Below are positions 39,001 through 51,000 of a stretch of DNA of 64,000 bases, piece after piece. Positions within the stretch are counted from its first letter, which is position 1; each line of letters starts with the position of its first letter. A program made the position numbers. Source of the stretch: Alphaproteobacteria bacterium (GTDB lineage Bacteria; Pseudomonadota; Alphaproteobacteria; GCA-2746255); contig OZ252220.1 of assembly GCA_965249135.1 (NCBI GenBank), positions 32,001 to 96,000 on the forward strand, in the 5' to 3' direction.

Positions 39001-42000
39001 AGAACGTCGTCAATCGCTAGCCCCAGCATTTCGAACAGGCCATTAAGGGTGAGGTTCTTCGCAAGGGTTCCGAGAAAAGGCTGATTCTCGGAAAGACGTA
39101 GCGCAAGATCGTCGAGTTCCTCGGTGTCGAGATAAAGAAAGCCGTGTTTCTCGAAATAGGGGTCGGCGGGTGGGTAAAAAATGTTCCGGAACAGATCCGT
39201 TCGCTCGCGTAGGCGTTTGGTAAGGTCTTCGGCCAGGATGTCCACGTAATCCGGATTGTCGCCTTCGAGAACGACAAGGATGACGTCCGAATATTGTGGG
39301 AAGGCTGCCTTTATCGTTTTGGCGTGTTTCCGGAACGGGAGCTCGGGCGAAAGCAGATCCGTCGTCCGCGTATTGATGCCGAGCGTGTCGACAGTATAGG
39401 CGGCAAGGCCCAAGGTCGCAGCGACGGCAACGAAAATAACCGTCCGCGCCCGGTGGTGGACAATGGCTATCCACCGGATGAGTATTTGGCGATACCAGTT
39501 GGTTATTCTGCTAATCACGGGAACGTCGTTTTCCTTGAAAAAGCGCCGCCTAGTTCTGGCTAGGCCGGCGGCAAGAAGGGGTCAAAGGCCTGCGGAAGGA
39601 TAGGGTGGTGTTTTCTCATCCGGAAATGCTTAAATATTATGGTCTCACCAGGGGCGCAAGAAGGGACGGGAGAGTCCCGAAAGGAAGGGTACATGCCACT
39701 CCGTCGGCTAAGGCAGATCCTGTACATCGCCATCGCCGCCATCTTTTTGGCGCTGCCGATACGCGCCGAGCCGTCTGGGCCGGCCGAGGTCGTCGAGAAA
39801 CTCCATGATAAGCTGATTTCGACCATGCAGCAGGCAAAGGAGCTTGGCTATGCGGGCAGGCGGGACGTGCTAACCCCCATCCTTCTAGCCACCTATGATC
39901 TCCGCCGCATGGCACGCGTGACGGTGGGGCGCCATTGGAAGGCCATGGCCGATGATCAGAAAGACTCGCTTGTCGAGTCATTTACGGCAATGACGCTCTC
40001 GAATTACGCTTTGCGTTTCGATGGTTTCTCGGGGGAGTATTTCGAAACGCTTGGTACCGTTGAAACGCCGCACGGGTATACCATCGTTCAAACACAAATC
40101 GTAACCTCCGACGAAAAGATCCGTATCGACTATCTTCTTCGAAAGTCGGACGATGGATGGGGGATTATTGATGTCTTTCTTAAGGGGACGATAAGCGAGC
40201 TTGCTGCGCGACGTTCCGAATACATGAGCGTCATCCGTGACCGTGGGGTGGACGCGTTGATTGACGCTGTGCGTGAAAAGGCCGCTAGCCTGGCCGAAGC
40301 ACGCTGACGGCTGATTCCTTTGCCACGGTTGGTGGTATGCGACGCATTTTCCTTCTTTTGCTGTTTGGACCATGCTTGCCGGTGTTCGTTTTTGCTTCGG
40401 CTGCAGCCGCAGACCTCCGTGTTCAAATAAACGAACCTCAAAACCGCAACGGTGTGATGCGGTTTGCGCTCTATGATCGCGCACCTGGATTCCCCACCCA
40501 TGAGGGCCGATTCGCCCATCTTGACATACCGGTTCCGAAAAAGGGGGAGGTCGAAGCCGTCTTTACGAACCTCCCTCCAGGAACCTATGCAGTTGCCGCC
40601 TATCATGACGAGAATGCAAACGGTGAATTCGATCAGGGGTTCTTAGGCTTTCCGTTGGAAGGCTATGGATTCAGTAACGACGCCCGTGGCTTTTTAAGCG
40701 CCCCCAGCTTTTCTTCTGCAGCGGTCATTCTGGGAAAGGACGGGGAAACAATCCGGCTTCGGCTGTCGTATTAAGCTGAGGAACCAAAAACAAAAAACGG
40801 CGCCCGGATGGAGCACCGTTCGAACTAGCAAGCCAAGGTTTGGCTAGTCGCCGTTCTCAAAATCCATATAGGTATATCCGAAAGGACTGCCCTCGCCATC
40901 GAGGGGGAGTTTCCCATCATGGATCTTATCAAGCCGATCCTGCCGGTAGAGGCTCCGGATCGTGGCATATAGATCGATGGCAGTCCGCTGAAGGTCGTCA
41001 AACCGTTCGATGTTCTGTTCGCGCCGATCAATCGCAATGAGGCCGGCCCGAGCAAAGGTAATCCAATCCTTGTCTTCATGATTGGCCGCGAATCGGAAGG
41101 GGTCGGCGAAACTGTCGACCAAGGCGCCGACAAGATCCCGCGGGTTCGAGGGTCCCAAGAGCGGCAGCATCAAATACGGCCCTTCCGGAACGCCCCAAAC
41201 AGCCATGGTTTGCCCGAAATCCTCGACATGGGATTCCAAGCCCCAGCCCGAAGCAATGTCGAAGAGACCGACGACACCAACCGTCGAGTTAATGGTGAAT
41301 CGCCCTACCGTCGTCGCTCCGCGTTCGAATTTCCCCTGAAGGAGGTCGTTCGCGAGAATGGTCGGCGCCAAGAGGTTTCGAAGGGCATTGCGGATGCTTT
41401 TCCGGACCATCTCGGGAAAGACGAAGCGATATCCCTGGGCCAGTGGCTTGAAGGCCATCCGATCGAGGAACAGGTTGGCGTCGAGAATGCCCCTATTCAC
41501 ATATTCCATAGGATCGTTCACGTCCCCTTCCTGGGCTTGGGCCTTCGACGGAGAAAGCCCCAGCGCGCCAAGAACAACGAAAACCGCAATGATTCGGAGG
41601 AGTCGCATCCGAAGCAGTTTAGAAAGGGACCGGCCTGCACCCATCTACCCACTCCTTGACTATGGTCAATTTACTAGACTTTTCAGAAAGATACCATCGT
41701 TTTAACCATGTGGCAAACGCCCAGTTCCCACGAGGGGCGGGGAGCATCTAAACGGAATTTTCTTACCATTTCCTTGCCGGCCCCCAGATCCTTTGGATGG
41801 CTTCGTTCTGTCGAAAATCGGCCAGAGGCTTGCTCGCACTTTGCACGACCGCCTAACATAGCGTCATGGGGCAGGGGCCTTTGGTGTAGGCGAAAGAGGT
41901 GAGCTCTAGAGGACCGAAAATGTCTAATCCCATTCTTTCCGTAACCGACAAGGACGCCTTTCGGCGGGATGGATTCGTCATCGTCCGGCAGCTTTTCGAT

Positions 42001-48000: not shown

Positions 48001-51000
48001 CGGAGCGAATCGCGGCAGCGGTCGAAAAGCTGCATGCCGAGGACTTCGTCCGTCTCATCGGGAATCCGGACTACCGAAAGGGAAGCATCACGACCCTTTG
48101 GGCGCTTAAGGATGCGATCCCTGCCAACGAGCCGATCCTGCTGATGGACGCGGACGTCCTTTACGACCCGCGGCTGATCGGGCGGCTACTGGCAACCTCG
48201 CATGCCAACTGCTTTCTTCTCGACCGCGATGTCGAGGAGGGAGAGGAACCCGTCAAACTTGGCGTACGAGGTGCAGAGCTTGTCGATTTCAATCGGCGCA
48301 TCACATTGCCCCATGACTTCTATGGCGAATCCGTCGGTTTTTTCCGTTTCTCGCCTGAGATTACGGAGAAGGTGATGGCGCATGCGGAACGCCGTTTGCA
48401 GGCAGGAGAGACGGAGCTTTGGTATGAAGAAGCGATTCGCGATGTGCTTCTTTCCGAACCTATCGGCACCTTTGGCTTTGAAGACGTGACCGGCCTTCCC
48501 TGGATCGAGATTGATTTTCCGGAAGATATTCGACGCGCGGACGAAGAGATTTTGCCAAGGCTATTGGTCTGAATTTCCGTTCCGGAAGAGATAGTTTTCT
48601 GGCCCCTGATAGCCATCAATACACATAGACGTGCCGGACTGAAAATTCATTTGATAGGTTTCGTACCCAACAGCGTGCAGAAAATCGAAGACATCTTTCA
48701 CGTGATGGCCCATGCGTGCCAGGTAGTCTTCGACGACCTCTAGATAAAGCGTGGGACGGAAACGACGGATGGTCTCGGCGCCCCCTTGCAGAACCAGGAA
48801 TTCGGCACCCTCGACATCGCATTTCACGAAATCGAGACGAGAAAACCCATTTTCAGTTGCGTAGCTGTCAAGGGTCGCCGTTTGTACGCGCTCCGTGACG
48901 TAATCACGCGCTTGCTCTGCTCCAAAATGTCCCAGCCCGATACCCAGATGGCCGGACTCCTTTACCGGCAAATAAAAATCGATTTCTCCGGTCTTATCGG
49001 AAAGGGCGAATTCGTTGATGCGCACGTTGTTAAGCTTACCCACGACCTCTTTCAGGATCGAGAGGTTATAGGGGGAAGGCTCGAAACAGTGCACGGAGAC
49101 ATTCCCGTGATGGAGCCGGGCAAACTCCTTCGCATAGCCCCCTATATGCGCACCAATGTCGAGGATAACCCCCTGTTCGGGGATGAGCGTGCCCAGGCAT
49201 TTGACGACGTGACGGTCGCGCGCCTTGTATTTTGCCTTGAGCTTATGGAGGAAGCGCTCAAAGCGTTGCGCAGGCGCATTGTAGACCTCAGTTGGGTCGA
49301 GTTTCTGACCTTTCCGTTCCAAAATGGCGCGTCCATCCAATCCAGGTGGCACGAAGTGGTGGGCGCTGCTGGGTTTGAACCAGCGACCCCTGCCGTGTGA
49401 AAAAAGCCTAACCCGCAAAAAATAGCATCGTTCAAGGTTTTTTGAGAAACGTCTTTCGTCGTTTAGACATGTCTAAAACAAGAACACCGATCAAAAATGG
49501 TTCAAATGAACCACCGCACGGTGCTTTTTTCAGCATCCCAATGCTCTCGACTTTGACCAATAGACTCTAATTACTTGTGCGGTTTGTACGTGAACTGATG
49601 TCTATTTAGCGAGGCGCGAGATTCGGCCGTTCCGGAAAGCCAAACGCTTACCGCCGTTTATCGACCGGAGTCTTCAGGCGGTGACGGCCGCACATTCGAC
49701 GTTCCCCATTCGTAACCGAGGGTCAGAAGATAGGCCGTATCGGTACCGGTCTTGCCTCGGACCGGAGAATTGTCCCAATCGAAATTCGCCTGCAGGGTGG
49801 CAAGAAAACCGTGGACGAGACGGAAGCGAAGGCCGGTACGGGTCCGGATGATGAGGTCGCTTGTATTCTCCAATCCCAAAAGCCCCTCCTGGGAGTGGAA
49901 GGCCTCGGCGCGATTGCGAAACAAGGCTTCCTGGTAGTTGATCGACCAGCGTGCAGCCGGATAATCTTTATCCTTCTGTGTACTAAAACCTTCCGTCACA
50001 TAACTGAATCCGAATTCGGCGGAAAGATCGCGTTCCTCGGTGTCGAAAAACTGATAGCCGGCGCCCCCGCCTGTCGCCGTGCGACGATTGAGGTCCTCAA
50101 ACTTATCGCGCTCGAAGCTCGCATTAAGGAAAGCAAACCACTGCTTCGTAAGGAAGTAATCGTACTTGGCAGAGACGAACGTATTATCATCGGTTTCTCT
50201 GCCGTCGTTCTTTTCCAGGTTGTATTCGAAGACAAGCTTCGCCCGGTGACGTTGCTTGCGCGCATTCACTTCCCCATCCACGTGATAGTTGTCTTCGTCA
50301 TTATTGCCTCTCTCGGCATCGAAGCCGAGATTGAGGCGGCCCCGCAATTCGAGTTTCCCTGCTTCCGAAACCGCAGGCTGAGCCGCCGCCTTGGGGGGCG
50401 CGGCCCGGGTCGCGATCTGCCGGGTAGCGGTCTGAATATCCGTGAAGCGAAATTCCCAGGCGCGCGTGAAGTCGGGGGTGACGAGCTGAAGCATGCTCCC
50501 ATAGCGGGGCGCGATCGTGCCCACGAGCCGCGTGCCGCTCGGAAACGTCACGTGCAAGGGCCAGTCCGCCTGGATGGCGGCAACCTCCTGGCGGCGAATG
50601 CGAATCCTGCCCGCGTAAGTCGTTTGCAGGGCGACTTCCTTCGGGTCGATCCCTTCGATCGTCCCTCTAAGGCGGTCGCCGGATTTCAGGAAAACCTCAT
50701 CTGCGGCGGCGGCGCCGGCGAAAACGAGGAAAAGAGCCAGGAGAACCAGACAGATCGGCCCTCGGAGATTGCCTCCCCTCAGCACGCGATCCGCCCTAGA
50801 GGTCGCACACCCCGCAAAGCAAGCGATTCCGCAACGGGTTTTCGTCTCACTGCCCCTCTCGCCCTTGCCATCCGCGCAATTGGCAAGCCCAACGTCAGCG
50901 GGCGCCAGTCCATGGCGTAAAGCATATCTCTGTTAGGCAACACCGTTCCGACGAATTCCACGAACGAAAAAGCATGCCCGGACAGGTGACGAACACCGCA

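What a model noticed while it worked through the whole genome (the two positions that open the first line are those of the whole stretch)
41920..49322. 2-Aminoethylphosphonate lipid head-group cluster with a PhnY-type hydroxylase but no PhnZ, next to the hopanoid genes
Directly after the hpn (hopanoid) and mlaA/mlaC-like genes lie a PhnY-like 2-AEP dioxygenase, CDP-alcohol phosphatidyltransferase genes, AEP transaminase, phosphonopyruvate decarboxylase, a PepM-cytidylyltransferase fusion, a second cytidylyltransferase and an FkbM methyltransferase; no phosphonate-degrading gene was found in the genome. I read it as a pathway to a membrane phosphonolipid: CMP-AEP is made, hydroxylated to 1-hydroxy-2-AEP by the PhnY homolog in a biosynthetic instead of catabolic role, and transferred to diacylglycerol or, as a long shot, to a hopanepolyol. 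New would be the transferase for bacterial phosphonolipids and an anabolic use of PhnY.
Evidence so far: g00064 41% id to PhnY, 35% to methylphosphonate hydroxylase; g00067 52%, g00068 49%, g00069 64% to the AEP pathway enzymes, g00069 carries NTP_transf_3 at 310-430; g00066/g00065 CDP-OH_P_transf. Only HD-domain proteins are SpoT, dGTPase and GlnD, so no PhnZ; no Swiss-Prot best hits to C-P lyase, phosphonatase or PhnA. Gene pairs of the cluster are near each other in 3-4 of the 5 other genomes of the order. hpnCDE-shc-hpnH-hpnN at 59738-71518.
(Added by a program. Inside this text positions count along the whole contig: contig position 32,001 is position 1 of the stretch shown here. "Call 12" and the like, gene names such as g00115 and contig names such as C1 are that model's own, and its searches are not shown. 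The text may have been shortened before it was handed on; [...] marks where a part breaks off. The agent that wrote the report below was given it as the finding of a first reader that could run no searches.)

Follow-up and report, generated by a model that had tools for sequence, protein, structure and literature searches.

The report
Aminoethylphosphonate lipid genes tied to hopanoids
This is a gene cluster for making a carbon-phosphorus (phosphonate) head group and attaching it to a membrane lipid; the cluster type is already predicted in print, but comparison with other genomes shows that it travels with the genes for hopanoids, the sterol-like lipids of bacteria, which suggests a still undescribed lipid.

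Summary
Window 41920-49322 encodes a PhnY*-like Fe/2-oxoglutarate oxygenase, one intact CDP-alcohol phosphotransferase, a remnant of a second, AEP transaminase, phosphonopyruvate decarboxylase, a PEP mutase-cytidylyltransferase fusion, a second cytidylyltransferase and an FkbM methyltransferase. It lies next to hpnCDE-shc-hpnGH-ispH-hpnA-hpnN-hpnM and an MlaA-like gene. No PhnZ, PhnJ, PhnX or PhnA was found in the 2.1-Mb genome.

The "Group 1 phosphonolipid / Burkholderiales_CDP-OH" family has the same core and a predicted 1-hydroxy-AEP product (PMC8942020). PhnY* homologues in biosynthesis are known (FzmG). A terpene-phosphonate has been speculated for Roseomonas (PMC8776678) and Nitrosococcus.

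New here:
- The hopanoid link is far more than adjacency. All 44 of 401 sampled class genomes with this transferase have squalene-hopene cyclase, against 80 of 357 without it.
- The genes are interleaved with hpn genes in many lineages, sometimes with PEP mutase remote or not found.
- The "phospholipid" gene of Group 1 clusters is HpnL.

In this genome the second transferase carries a ~360-nt deletion. The oxygenase was found in 3 of 5 congeners.

Verdict: new member of a known, uncharacterised kind. The acceptor (hopanepolyol or diacylglycerol) remains open.

The parts
27723..36912 (.). Hopanoid biosynthesis genes: hpnC 27723-28583 (+), hpnD 28688-29575 (+), hpnE 29579-30829 (+), shc 30856-32814 (+), hpnG about 32565-33509 (+), hpnH 33532-34656 (-), ispH 34678-35733 (-), hpnA 35803-36912 (+)
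   Evidence: NCBIfam equivalogs over cut-off for HpnC, HpnD, HpnE, hopene cyclase, HpnH and HpnA. HpnG scores 174 bits vs 187, just below cut-off.
36909..39518 (-). hpnN, RND/MMPL hopanoid transporter
   Evidence: TIGR03480 941 bits vs 751.85; PF03176 MMPL
39639..40307 (+). hpnM, MlaC-like periplasmic lipid-binding protein
   Evidence: TIGR03481 HpnM 186.7 bits vs 160.1; PF05494 MlaC
40844..41644 (-). MlaA-like lipoprotein, called 'HpnS' in bioRxiv 10.1101/2025.07.29.667474
   Evidence: PF04333 MlaA 231 bits. The name HpnS comes from passages read.
41920..42690 (+). PhnY*-like Fe(II)/2-oxoglutarate oxygenase (PhyH family), 256 aa; putative (hydroxy)AEP-forming hydroxylase
   Evidence: PF05721. 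NF052437 168 bits over the full length, below the 500 cut-off. H121-x-D123, H203 and R213/R214 are present. Homologues of 60-63% identity are named 2-aminoethylphosphonate dioxygenase by JGI. Found in 3 of 5 congeners.
42717..42977 (+). Remnant of the second CDP-alcohol phosphotransferase paralogue (CDPOH2), cut short by a ~360-nt deletion
   Evidence: PF01066 profile positions 3-54 only. Full-length (~200 aa) orthologues follow the oxygenase in G001 and G003, and in G002 with an N run. The DNA alignment A3 shows the gap. The motif stops after DxxDGxxAR.
42981..43580 (-). CDP-alcohol phosphotransferase CDPOH1, 199 aa; putative CMP-AEP:lipid-alcohol aminoethylphosphonyl transferase
   Evidence: PF01066 48 bits vs 22. 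Complete motif D65xxD68G69xxA72R73x8G82xxxD86xxxD90. Nearest solved relatives are AF2299, PIP synthases, DIPP synthase and CEPT1/CHPT1.
43731..44855 (+). 2-aminoethylphosphonate:pyruvate aminotransferase (PhnW/AEPT)
   Evidence: NF010006 521 bits vs 296; TIGR03301 467 vs 361
44879..46018 (-). Phosphonopyruvate decarboxylase (Ppd)
   Evidence: TIGR03297 432.7 bits vs 312.5
46015..47670 (-). PEP mutase fused to a C-terminal NTP_transf_3 nucleotidyltransferase (Ppm-PntC)
   Evidence: TIGR02320 391 bits vs 319.55; PF12804 at residues 310-430. Ppm motif [10 protein letters not shown] at residue 124.
47793..48572 (+). Stand-alone cytidylyltransferase (PntC2)
   Evidence: PF12804 55 bits. The best solved relative is the AEP cytidylyltransferase Tde-PntC, 6pd1, 57 bits, over residues 17-257.
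48561..49418 (-). FkbM-family methyltransferase (start at TTG 49322 or TTG 49418)
   Evidence: PF05050 84 bits; TIGR01444 102 bits. Kept next to PntC2 only within the genus.
49658..50785 (-). DUF481 protein; membership in the system uncertain
   Evidence: PF04338 174 bits. It is next to FkbM in the 2 congeners where that flank was held, G004 and G005.

Best explanation
The region is a biosynthetic cluster for a 2-aminoethylphosphonate (AEP) head group on a membrane lipid. It is an alphaproteobacterial version of the published but chemically uncharacterised 'Group 1 phosphonolipid' cluster family.

Proposed steps:
1. PEP mutase, phosphonopyruvate decarboxylase and the PhnW aminotransferase make AEP. 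The family assignment is shown; the chemistry is established for these families.
2. A cytidylyltransferase makes CMP-AEP. This is inferred. The stand-alone PntC2 is the closer relative of the characterised AEP enzyme.
3. The PhnY*-like oxygenase may hydroxylate C1 of AEP, either free or already bound. This is inferred, and its place in the order of steps is unknown.
4. The small integral-membrane CDP-alcohol phosphotransferase CDPOH1 transfers the aminoethylphosphonyl group from CMP to a lipid alcohol, in the manner of the Kennedy pathway. This is inferred.
5. The product probably works together with the hopanoid machinery. An unlinked HpnL, a flippase-like protein, would flip it. HpnN, HpnM and the MlaA-like protein would carry it to the outer membrane. 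This is inferred from cross-genome linkage.

In this genome the pathway is a reduced form. The second transferase paralogue is a deletion remnant, and the oxygenase is an accessory gene within the genus.
For: Gene identities:
- Equivalog-level scores for Ppm, Ppd and PhnW, and the Ppm motif EDKxxxxxNS.
- PF12804 enzymes make CMP-AEP, and a third of Ppm proteins are fused to that domain (PMC6697681, passages).
- PntC2's best solved relative is that AEP enzyme, 6pd1.
- CDPOH1 has the full catalytic motif.
- The oxygenase has the HxD...H triad and a full-length match to the PhnY* model.

No phosphonate degradation genes were found.

The gene set matches the printed core of the Burkholderiales_CDP-OH family.

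Link to hopanoids:
- Of 41 loci with at least 8 kb on both sides of a Ppm-PntC gene, 26 carry CDPOH or PntC2, and 18 of those 26 have at least one hpn gene within 10 kb. Of the 15 without, 1 has one, a weak hpnA-like hit.
- In a 401-genome sample of the class, 44 have a CDPOH1-like gene (E <= 1e-20). All 44, from 27 family labels, have shc. Among the rest, 80 of 357 have shc.
- In a 371-genome sample of the phylum, the 4 other genomes with strong hits all have shc and Ppm.
- The 'lysyl-PG synthase domain' gene of such clusters scores as HpnL (TIGR03476, cut-off 195.65): B. cenocepacia 371 bits, Mycetohabitans 330, Roseomonas marmotae 260, G171 278.
- The own genome has an HpnL at contig position 685806-686810, 317 bits.
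- An HpnL-like gene is present in 24 of 51 lipid-type loci and 0 of 29 others.
Against: - No product has been characterised for any cluster of this family (PMC8942020).
- The oxygenase scores well below the equivalog cut-off (168 vs 500 bits), and no PhnY* structure is in the PDB for checking substrate residues.
- The oxygenase was not found in 2 of 5 congeners or in 22 of 51 lipid-type loci, many of them on short contigs. Hydroxylation is therefore optional.
- The Burkholderiales version uses an unrelated oxygenase, HalD/BesD-like.
- The lipid module (PntC2, PhyH, HpnL, CDPOH1) occurs in genomes where no true Ppm was found, for example G171, 98% complete. Its substrate there may not be AEP.
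- One transferase is broken here, and HpnL is unlinked.
- Genomes are related, so the counts overstate independence. One of the 44 (G244) is an unpublished genome; without it the count is 43 of 43.
Confidence: 0.8

Rival explanations
1. The acceptor is a hopanepolyol. CDPOH1 esterifies AEP or 1-hydroxy-AEP from its CMP conjugate to a side-chain hydroxyl of bacteriohopanetetrol or a related extended hopanoid. This gives a phosphono-hopanoid, which HpnL flips and HpnN, HpnM and the MlaA-like protein export. This is a sharper form of the best explanation, not a contradiction of it.
For: - Complete nesting of the transferase in shc-bearing genomes: 44 of 44, and 4 of 4 outside the class.
- Interleaving with hpn genes in varied gene orders. 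L025 reads hpnH ispH CDPOH hpnA CDPOH PntC2 hpnN hpnM Ppm Ppd AEPT. L035, L036, L045 and L046 read hpnA PntC2 PhyH Ppm Ppd CDPOH ... hpnN.
- The transferase stays with shc when Ppm is elsewhere. In G053, hpnA and CDPOH overlap, PntC2 lies next to shc, and Ppm is 896 kb away. In G312, everything but Ppm lies in the hpn cluster.
- By my reading of the coordinates, CDPOH lies within 11 kb of shc in 18 of the 21 genomes where both are on one contig.
- The link recurs in a betaproteobacterium, Mycetohabitans pBRH01.
- HpnL is a core gene of these clusters.
Against: - No phosphorus-containing hopanoid is reported in the papers read. PMC12583986 and bioRxiv 10.1101/2025.07.29.667474 hold 0 occurrences of 'phosphon'. 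Searches for hopanoid or bacteriohopane together with phosphonate terms gave only the speculations cited above.
- In B. cenocepacia, B. multivorans and Cupriavidus sp. P-10 no hpn gene lies within 14 kb of the cluster. In the two Burkholderia records shc is about 1-2 Mb away, and the Cupriavidus replicon has none.
- Physical linkage alone would make the two gene sets co-occur.
- No known member of the CDP-alcohol phosphotransferase family uses a triterpenoid acceptor (my recollection of the family).
Confidence: 0.4
2. The acceptor is diacylglycerol or another glycerolipid. The product would be a phosphonate analogue of phosphatidylethanolamine, as the literature on Group 1 clusters assumes. 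The tie to hopanoid genes would then reflect shared export (HpnN, HpnM, MlaA-like) or joint regulation of outer-membrane hardening.
For: - CDPOH1 is related to choline/ethanolamine phosphotransferases and PIP synthases.
- The printed interpretation is a phosphonolipid.
- The clusters are unlinked from hpn genes in Burkholderia and Cupriavidus.
- AEP glycerolipids are known from other organisms (recalled).
Against: - Diacylglycerol is universal, yet the transferase was found only in hopanoid producers: 44 of 44, against a background of 80 of 357.
- Operon-like arrangements with hpnA and hpnN are not needed under this model.
Confidence: 0.35
3. The head group goes on a glycan, lipid A or a protein (a phosphonoglycan-type decoration) instead of a membrane lipid alcohol.
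For: - About half of pepM clusters are thought to decorate glycans or lipids (PMC8942020).
- hpnA is a sugar-epimerase-like protein.
Against: - No LicD-type transferase or glycosyltransferase lies in window 41920-50785.
- The transferases are small polytopic CDP-alcohol phosphotransferases.
- Ppm-PntC loci without CDPOH or PntC2 are a separate set and lack hpn genes (14 of 15).
Confidence: 0.08
4. The PhyH oxygenase does not act on AEP. It would hydroxylate the lipid part or another small molecule, or it would be a leftover on its way to loss, like its neighbour CDPOH2.
For: - It is below the equivalog cut-off.
- It occurs in genomes where no Ppm was found (G171, G295, G016).
- It was not found in G004 and G005.
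- Its downstream partner is deleted here.
- PhyH is at root a family of isoprenoid-acid hydroxylases.
Against: - The frame is intact, with triad and Arg kept, at 77-80% identity to congeners.
- It gives a full-length match to the PhnY* model, E = 2e-49.
- Within the 80 loci it occurs almost only in lipid-type phosphonate loci: 29 of 51, against 2 of 29.
- An unrelated oxygenase holds the same place in the Burkholderiales clusters, which points to a conserved hydroxylation step.
Confidence: 0.2

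Closest known systems
'Burkholderiales_CDP-OH' gene cluster family, equated with the Group 1 phosphonolipids of Yu et al. 2013 (PMC8942020; section 13 and passages read. Yu et al. was not held)
   Same: Ppm fused to a PF12804 cytidylyltransferase, Ppd, AEPT, a second cytidylyltransferase, a CDP-alcohol phosphotransferase and a 2-oxoglutarate/Fe(II) oxygenase. 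Predicted (hydroxy)AEP lipid. Ppm-PntC is 51-55% identical to those of Burkholderia, Mycetohabitans and Cupriavidus.
   Different: The oxygenase here is PhyH/PhnY*-type, whereas in Mycetohabitans and B. cenocepacia it is HalD/BesD-like. The HpnL gene is not in the cluster but about 600 kb away. There is a second transferase paralogue lacking the last Asp of the motif, and it is truncated in this genome. An FkbM methyltransferase is added. The cluster abuts the hpn genes.
PhnY*/PhnZ oxidative 2-AEP catabolism
   Same: The oxygenase belongs to the same PhyH clade as PhnY*, with a full-length model match and the triad.
   Different: No PhnZ-type HD protein is in the genome. The context is biosynthetic. 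The score is below the equivalog cut-off.
FzmG, a PhnY* homologue in fosfazinomycin biosynthesis (named in PMC8942020, passage)
   Same: A biosynthetic use of a PhnY*-type alpha-carbon hydroxylase.
   Different: A different pathway and substrate. No sequence comparison was made here.
PntC AEP cytidylyltransferases (Tde1415, Ari1348; PMC6697681, passages read)
   Same: PF12804 domain. PntC2 aligns over its whole length to Tde-PntC, 6pd1.
   Different: Only 57 bits. Substrate not tested. The fused domain is nearer to sugar-1-phosphate nucleotidyltransferases and LicC.
shc-pepM 'hybrid' clusters of Roseomonas (PMC8776678) and Nitrosococcus GCF 731 'phosphonoterpene' (PMC8942020)
   Same: Physical linkage of hopanoid and phosphonate genes. 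Roseomonas marmotae p1318-3 shows the phosphonate genes inside the hpn cluster.
   Different: Those notes are one-line speculations for single genera. They give no transferase, no HpnL link and no phyletic test.
Kennedy-type ethanolamine/choline phosphotransferases (CEPT1, CHPT1) and PIP, AIP and DIPP synthases
   Same: The CDP-alcohol phosphotransferase motif and fold family.
   Different: Low scores (37-60 bits). A distinct small subfamily with unknown donor and acceptor.
1-hydroxy-AEP sphingophosphonolipid of Bacteriovorax stolpii (as cited in PMC8942020)
   Same: A bacterial lipid bearing 1-hydroxy-AEP shows that such head groups exist.
   Different: The paper says its cluster belongs to a more distantly related family (GCF 761), and the lipid is a sphingolipid.

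Membership tests
PEP mutase (Ppm) | Score over the TIGR02320 cut-off, and the Ppm-specific motif EDKxxxxxNS | tested here: met
   391.4 bits vs 319.55. [10 protein letters not shown] at residue 124. The motif is as defined in PMC6697681.
Phosphonopyruvate decarboxylase and AEP transaminase | Equivalog models TIGR03297 and NF010006/TIGR03301 over cut-off | tested here: met
   432.7 vs 312.5; 521.4 vs 296; 466.7 vs 360.8
PntC (AEP cytidylyltransferase) | PF12804 domain and AEP-specific activity | tested here: inconclusive
   The domain is present in both proteins, and PntC2 is nearest to Tde-PntC 6pd1. Substrate specificity is not testable here.
PhnY* 2-AEP dioxygenase (catabolic PhnY*/PhnZ pair) | PhyH-fold Fe/2OG oxygenase with the HxD...H triad | tested here: met
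   PF05721; H121, D123, H203, R213/214
PhnY* 2-AEP dioxygenase (catabolic PhnY*/PhnZ pair) | Partner PhnZ (HD phosphohydrolase) in the genome | tested here: not met
   TIGR03276 gives 0 matches. There are only 3 HD frames, of 394, 927 and 717 aa.
Methylphosphonate hydroxylase (NF052437 equivalog) | Score over the curated cut-off | tested here: not met
   168.4 bits vs 500
CDP-alcohol phosphotransferase | Motif DxxDGxxARx8GxxxDxxxD in a polytopic membrane protein | tested here: met
   CDPOH1 has it complete. The fragment at 42717-42977 keeps only DxxDGxxAR. The intact CDPOH2 orthologues in relatives have Gly (or Ser, Val, Ala) in place of the last Asp.
Group 1 phosphonolipid / Burkholderiales_CDP-OH cluster | Seven-gene core: Ppm-PntC, Ppd, AEPT, 2OG oxygenase, second PntC, two 'phospholipid' genes | tested here: inconclusive
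   Six functions are present in the cluster. The oxygenase is of another family than in Burkholderiales. The HpnL-type gene is present in the genome but unlinked. No BiG-SCAPE-type classification was run.
Hopanoid-associated transport set (HpnN, HpnM) | TIGR03480 and TIGR03481 over cut-off, next to shc | tested here: met
   941 vs 752; 187 vs 160; shc lies 4 kb upstream of hpnN

The most novel reading that the evidence does not exclude
The uncharacterised product of the most common pepM cluster family is not a glycerophosphonolipid but a phosphono-hopanoid. AEP or 1-hydroxy-AEP would be ester-linked through its phosphonate to a bacteriohopanepolyol by this small CDP-alcohol phosphotransferase. 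The orphan hopanoid gene hpnL would encode its flippase. The same module may put other CDP-activated head groups on hopanoids in genomes where no PEP mutase was found.
Probability: 0.4. Interest if true: 0.85.

Novelty: new member of a known kind. Interest (0 to 1): 0.55.

Why it matters
Group 1 clusters made up 36% of the pepM neighbourhoods surveyed in RefSeq (318 of 882; PMC8942020), yet no product is known for them. HpnL, HpnM and HpnA are long-standing orphan genes of hopanoid clusters (PMC12583986; bioRxiv 10.1101/2025.07.29.667474).

The two literatures have not been joined. The hopanoid papers I searched do not mention phosphonates. The phosphonate inventory does not mention hopanoids.

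The cross-genome pattern found here gives both fields one concrete experiment: look for AEP-bearing hopanoids, or hopanoid-dependent phosphonolipids, in cultured carriers. A phosphonate-capped hopanoid would be a new lipid class. It could matter for outer-membrane stress resistance and as a possible biomarker.

For this window itself the result is more modest. It is a somewhat decayed member of the family, in an uncultured alphaproteobacterium.

Tried and rejected
- Catabolic reading of the PhnY-like gene: rejected, because no PhnZ, PhnJ, PhnX or PhnA was found.
- The idea that PhyH and the second transferase form an obligatory pair. It was suggested by G005 lacking both. It is not upheld across lineages: Inquilinus and Caulobacter loci have PhyH with CDPOH1 only, and L025 and L027 have CDPOH2 without PhyH.
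- The idea that the MMPL gene next to CDPOH in Caulobacter sp. S45 is a paralogue and not HpnN: rejected, because it scores 1101 bits on the HpnN equivalog, cut-off 1100.
- A solved PhnY* structure for checking substrate residues: none found by sequence.
- FkbM as a conserved part of the system: found only within the genus, so it is left as an accessory of unknown role (N- or O-methylation is a guess).
- The phylum-wide sample was dominated by a few families and gave only 4 informative genomes. A background shc rate for that sample was not measured.
- The Yu et al. 2013 paper was not held.
- No structure prediction or complex prediction was run. None would decide the acceptor.

Full report
**1. 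What is there**

The window is positions 32001-96000 of a single-contig genome of 2.118 Mb, 98.75% complete. The record titles of the closest loci name uncultured Rhodospirillaceae and Alphaproteobacteria.

ORF listing and profile scans give the following order:
- hpnC, hpnD, hpnE, shc, hpnG (27723-33509, +)
- hpnH and ispH (-), hpnA (+)
- hpnN (36909-39518, -), hpnM (39639-40307, +), an MlaA-like lipoprotein (40844-41644, -)
- a PhyH-family oxygenase (41920-42690, +)
- an 86-codon N-terminal piece of a CDP-alcohol phosphotransferase (42717-42977, +)
- a complete 199-aa CDP-alcohol phosphotransferase on the other strand (42981-43580, -)
- PhnW (43731-44855, +), phosphonopyruvate decarboxylase (44879-46018, -)
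- PEP mutase fused to an NTP_transf_3 domain (46015-47670, -)
- a second NTP_transf_3 protein (47793-48572, +)
- an FkbM methyltransferase (48561-49322/49418, -) and a DUF481 protein

Ppm, Ppd and PhnW all score over their equivalog cut-offs. The Ppm motif EDKxxxxxNS is present.

**2. No catabolic partner**

- The genome gives no match to the PhnZ-type HD model.
- It gives no match to PhnJ or PhnA.
- For phosphonatase there are only generic HAD hits far below cut-off.
- There are three HD-domain frames, of 394, 927 and 717 aa.

The oxygenase has the H121-x-D123...H203 triad and R213/214. It matches the PhnY*-type methylphosphonate hydroxylase model over its whole length (E = 2e-49), at 168 bits against a cut-off of 500. 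It is therefore a relative, not an equivalog. Proteins 60-63% identical to it carry the automatic name 2-aminoethylphosphonate dioxygenase. No solved PhnY* structure was found by sequence.

**3. The fragment**

- In congeners G001 and G003 the oxygenase gene is followed by a full-length second transferase of about 200 aa, convergent with the first. The same holds in G002, where an N run interrupts the gene.
- A DNA alignment shows a clean gap of about 360 nt in the window. It removes everything after DxxDGxxAR.
- This paralogue (CDPOH2) is conserved in several lineages. It always has Gly (or Ser, Val, Ala) in place of the last Asp of DxxDGxxARx8GxxxDxxxD. The CDPOH1 clade keeps the full motif.
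- G005 has neither the oxygenase nor CDPOH2 at the locus.
- The oxygenase was found in 3 of 5 congeners, and not in G004 (96% complete) or G005 (99%).
- FkbM is kept only within the genus.

**4. What is already in print**

PMC8942020 (section 13 and passages) says the following:
- It describes the 'Burkholderiales_CDP-OH' group, 318 of 882 pepM neighbourhoods, and equates it with the Group 1 phosphonolipids of Yu et al. 2013.
- The predicted product is a 1-hydroxy-substituted phosphonate, and no lipid has been characterised.
- PhnY* homologues such as FzmG hydroxylate phosphonate alpha-carbons in biosynthesis.
- The squalene genes in Nitrosococcus clusters 'hint at a possible phosphonoterpene'.

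PMC8776678 (passages) notes shc linked to pepM in some Roseomonas and suggests an 'undiscovered terpene-phosphonate'. PMC6697681 (passages) shows that PF12804 enzymes make CMP-AEP and that a third of Ppm proteins are fused to that domain.

So the transferase idea, the anabolic oxygenase and even the hopanoid long shot have all been voiced. None has been tested.

**5. How this cluster differs from the Burkholderiales type**

In the plasmid and chromid records of Mycetohabitans rhizoxinica and B. cenocepacia:
- The oxygenase is HalD/BesD-like, not PhyH.
- There is one transferase, and it keeps the last Asp.
- There is a 'lysyl-PG synthase domain' gene.

That last gene scores as HpnL (TIGR03476, cut-off 195.65): 371 bits in B. 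cenocepacia, 330 in Mycetohabitans, 260 in Roseomonas marmotae and 278 in G171. The window's genome has an HpnL (317 bits) at contig position 685806-686810. It is unlinked, among sugar-modification genes. Among the 80 fetched loci an HpnL-like gene lies in 24 of the 51 lipid-type loci and in none of the other 29.

**6. The hopanoid link across genomes: gene neighbourhoods**

A scan of one genome per species with a Ppm-PntC alignment kept the best 80 loci. Nearly all are alphaproteobacterial.

Using tblastn with the window's proteins, I looked at the 41 loci with at least 8 kb on both sides:
- 26 carry CDPOH or PntC2, and 18 of these have at least one of hpnA, C, D, E, G, H, M, N or shc within 10 kb.
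- 15 carry neither, and only 1 of these has such a hit, a 31%-identical hpnA-like match.
- ispH and mlaA were left out of the count as not specific to hopanoids.
- The Fisher test on this table gives p about 1e-4. Kinship inflates it.

The gene orders differ widely, yet the two gene sets stay mixed. Examples:
- hpnH ispH CDPOH hpnA CDPOH PntC2 hpnN hpnM Ppm Ppd AEPT (L025)
- hpnA PntC2 PhyH Ppm Ppd CDPOH1 CDPOH2 hpnN (L035, L045, L046; L036 lacks the CDPOH2 hit)
- hpnA hpnCDE ... PhyH PntC2 Ppm Ppd AEPT CDPOH1 (Inquilinus)
- phosphonate genes flanked on both sides by hpn genes (Roseomonas-like L091 and L092, and R. marmotae p1318-3)

In Mycetohabitans pBRH01 the cluster is followed by dxs, hpnN, an MlaC-like gene, ispH, hpnH and hpnA.

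Against this, B. cenocepacia, B. multivorans and Cupriavidus sp. P-10 have no hpn gene within 14 kb. In the two Burkholderia records shc is on the same replicon but about 1-2 Mb away, and the Cupriavidus replicon has none.

**7. The hopanoid link across genomes: phyletic pattern**

In a 401-genome sample of the class:
- 44 genomes have a CDPOH1-like gene at E <= 1e-20.
- 124 have shc at E <= 1e-50.
- 40 have Ppm over cut-off.

All 44 transferase-bearing genomes have shc. They come from 27 family labels. One of them, G244, is unpublished, so the count is 43 of 43 without it. Among the other genomes, 80 of 357 have shc.

Of the 44, 34 have Ppm over cut-off and 3 more have a fragment or a sub-threshold hit. 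The remaining 7 have none. Among these 7, no true Ppm was found even at E <= 1e-5 in G171 (98% complete), G295 and G317.

G171 carries hpnA ispH hpnH hpnG shc hpnD hpnM hpnN PntC2 PhyH HpnL CDPOH1 in one stretch.

Conversely, of 6 genomes with Ppm but no such transferase, 3 lack shc.

Where Ppm is remote, the transferase stays with shc:
- In G053, hpnA overlaps CDPOH and PntC2 is next to shc, with Ppm-Ppd 896 kb away.
- In G312, everything but Ppm is inside the hpn cluster.

In a phylum sample searched with a profile of the family, the only other strong hits (at least 190 bits) were 4 genomes of other classes. All 4 have shc and Ppm.

**8. Reading**

The safe conclusion is a biosynthetic AEP (optionally 1-hydroxy-AEP) head group. 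It would be activated as a CMP conjugate and transferred by CDPOH1 to a lipid alcohol.

PntC2 is the closer relative of the characterised AEP cytidylyltransferase, 6pd1. The fused domain is nearer to LicC and sugar-phosphate enzymes. CDPOH1's nearest solved relatives are AF2299, PIP and DIPP synthases and CEPT1/CHPT1.

The cross-genome data argue that the module depends on hopanoids. Either the hopanepolyol is the acceptor, or the product needs the HpnL / HpnN-HpnM-MlaA-like route. I put the hopanoid acceptor at about 0.4 and a glycerolipid at about 0.35.

Points against the hopanoid acceptor:
- No phosphorus-bearing hopanoid appears in the hopanoid papers I searched. PMC12583986 and the preprint hold 0 occurrences of 'phosphon'.
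- The other searches gave only the speculations cited above.
- The link is absent in Burkholderia.
- Linked genes co-occur for trivial reasons.

The hopanoid preprint calls the function of HpnL unclear and proposes HpnM plus the MlaA-like 'HpnS' as hopanoid shuttles.

**9. Verdict**

This is a new, partly decayed member of a known but uncharacterised cluster family.

Its value lies in the comparative pattern, which links two orphan problems (Group 1 phosphonolipids and HpnL) and makes them testable. All counts are from samples of related genomes. Absence means 'not found in those searched'.

Noticed in passing
L013:6223-6837 (+), L019:5008-5616 (+), and CDPOH2-type genes in L023, L025, L027, L035, L038, L042, L045-L047, L060 and L080: A conserved paralogue clade of the CDP-alcohol phosphotransferase has Gly (or Ser, Val, Ala) in place of the fourth Asp of the catalytic motif. 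It usually lies convergent with, or next to, the complete paralogue. It may be a non-catalytic partner in a dimer or use another base. In the window it is the deleted gene.
   Followed up: partly
L109 (G171:C3:124000-143999); also L111, L112, L113, L114: The lipid module (PntC2, PhyH, HpnL, CDPOH1) sits in or near hopanoid genes in genomes where no true PEP mutase was found (best 130 bits vs 319.55). G171 is 98% complete. Either AEP is imported, or the module handles another CDP-activated head group there.
   Followed up: partly
L105:11367-12074 (+) and L104:11400-12197 (+): In the Burkholderiaceae clusters the oxygenase is HalD/BesD-like (PF23169, NF042920 weak hits) and not PhyH. An unrelated Fe/2OG enzyme thus holds the same place in the cluster.
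   Followed up: partly
Genomes of family label f224 (for example G590:C6:409-990): Frames of 340-454 aa give hits of about 100 bits to the transferase profile in small (~2 Mb) genomes of another class. The one genome checked (G590) has shc but no PEP mutase. This may be a fused or distinct subfamily.
   Followed up: no
window 54006-54395 (-): A HAD-family frame gives the best, but far sub-threshold, phosphonatase hit in the genome (38.8 bits vs 220). It is probably an ordinary HAD phosphatase.
   Followed up: no
L014:6533-6680: In the closest congener (G002) the second transferase gene is interrupted by a run of N. Its intactness is inferred from the frame on both sides only.
   Followed up: no
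G000:C1:685806-686810 (L117:6807-7811): The genome's HpnL lies far from both the hpn and the phosphonate genes. Its neighbours are a nucleotide-sugar dehydrogenase, an RfaH-like regulator, a sugar aminotransferase and a methyltransferase.
   Followed up: partly
window 48561-50785: The FkbM methyltransferase overlaps the 3' end of PntC2 by 12 nt, convergently. A DUF481 gene follows it. The pair was seen only within the genus, and its role in the pathway is unknown.
   Followed up: partly
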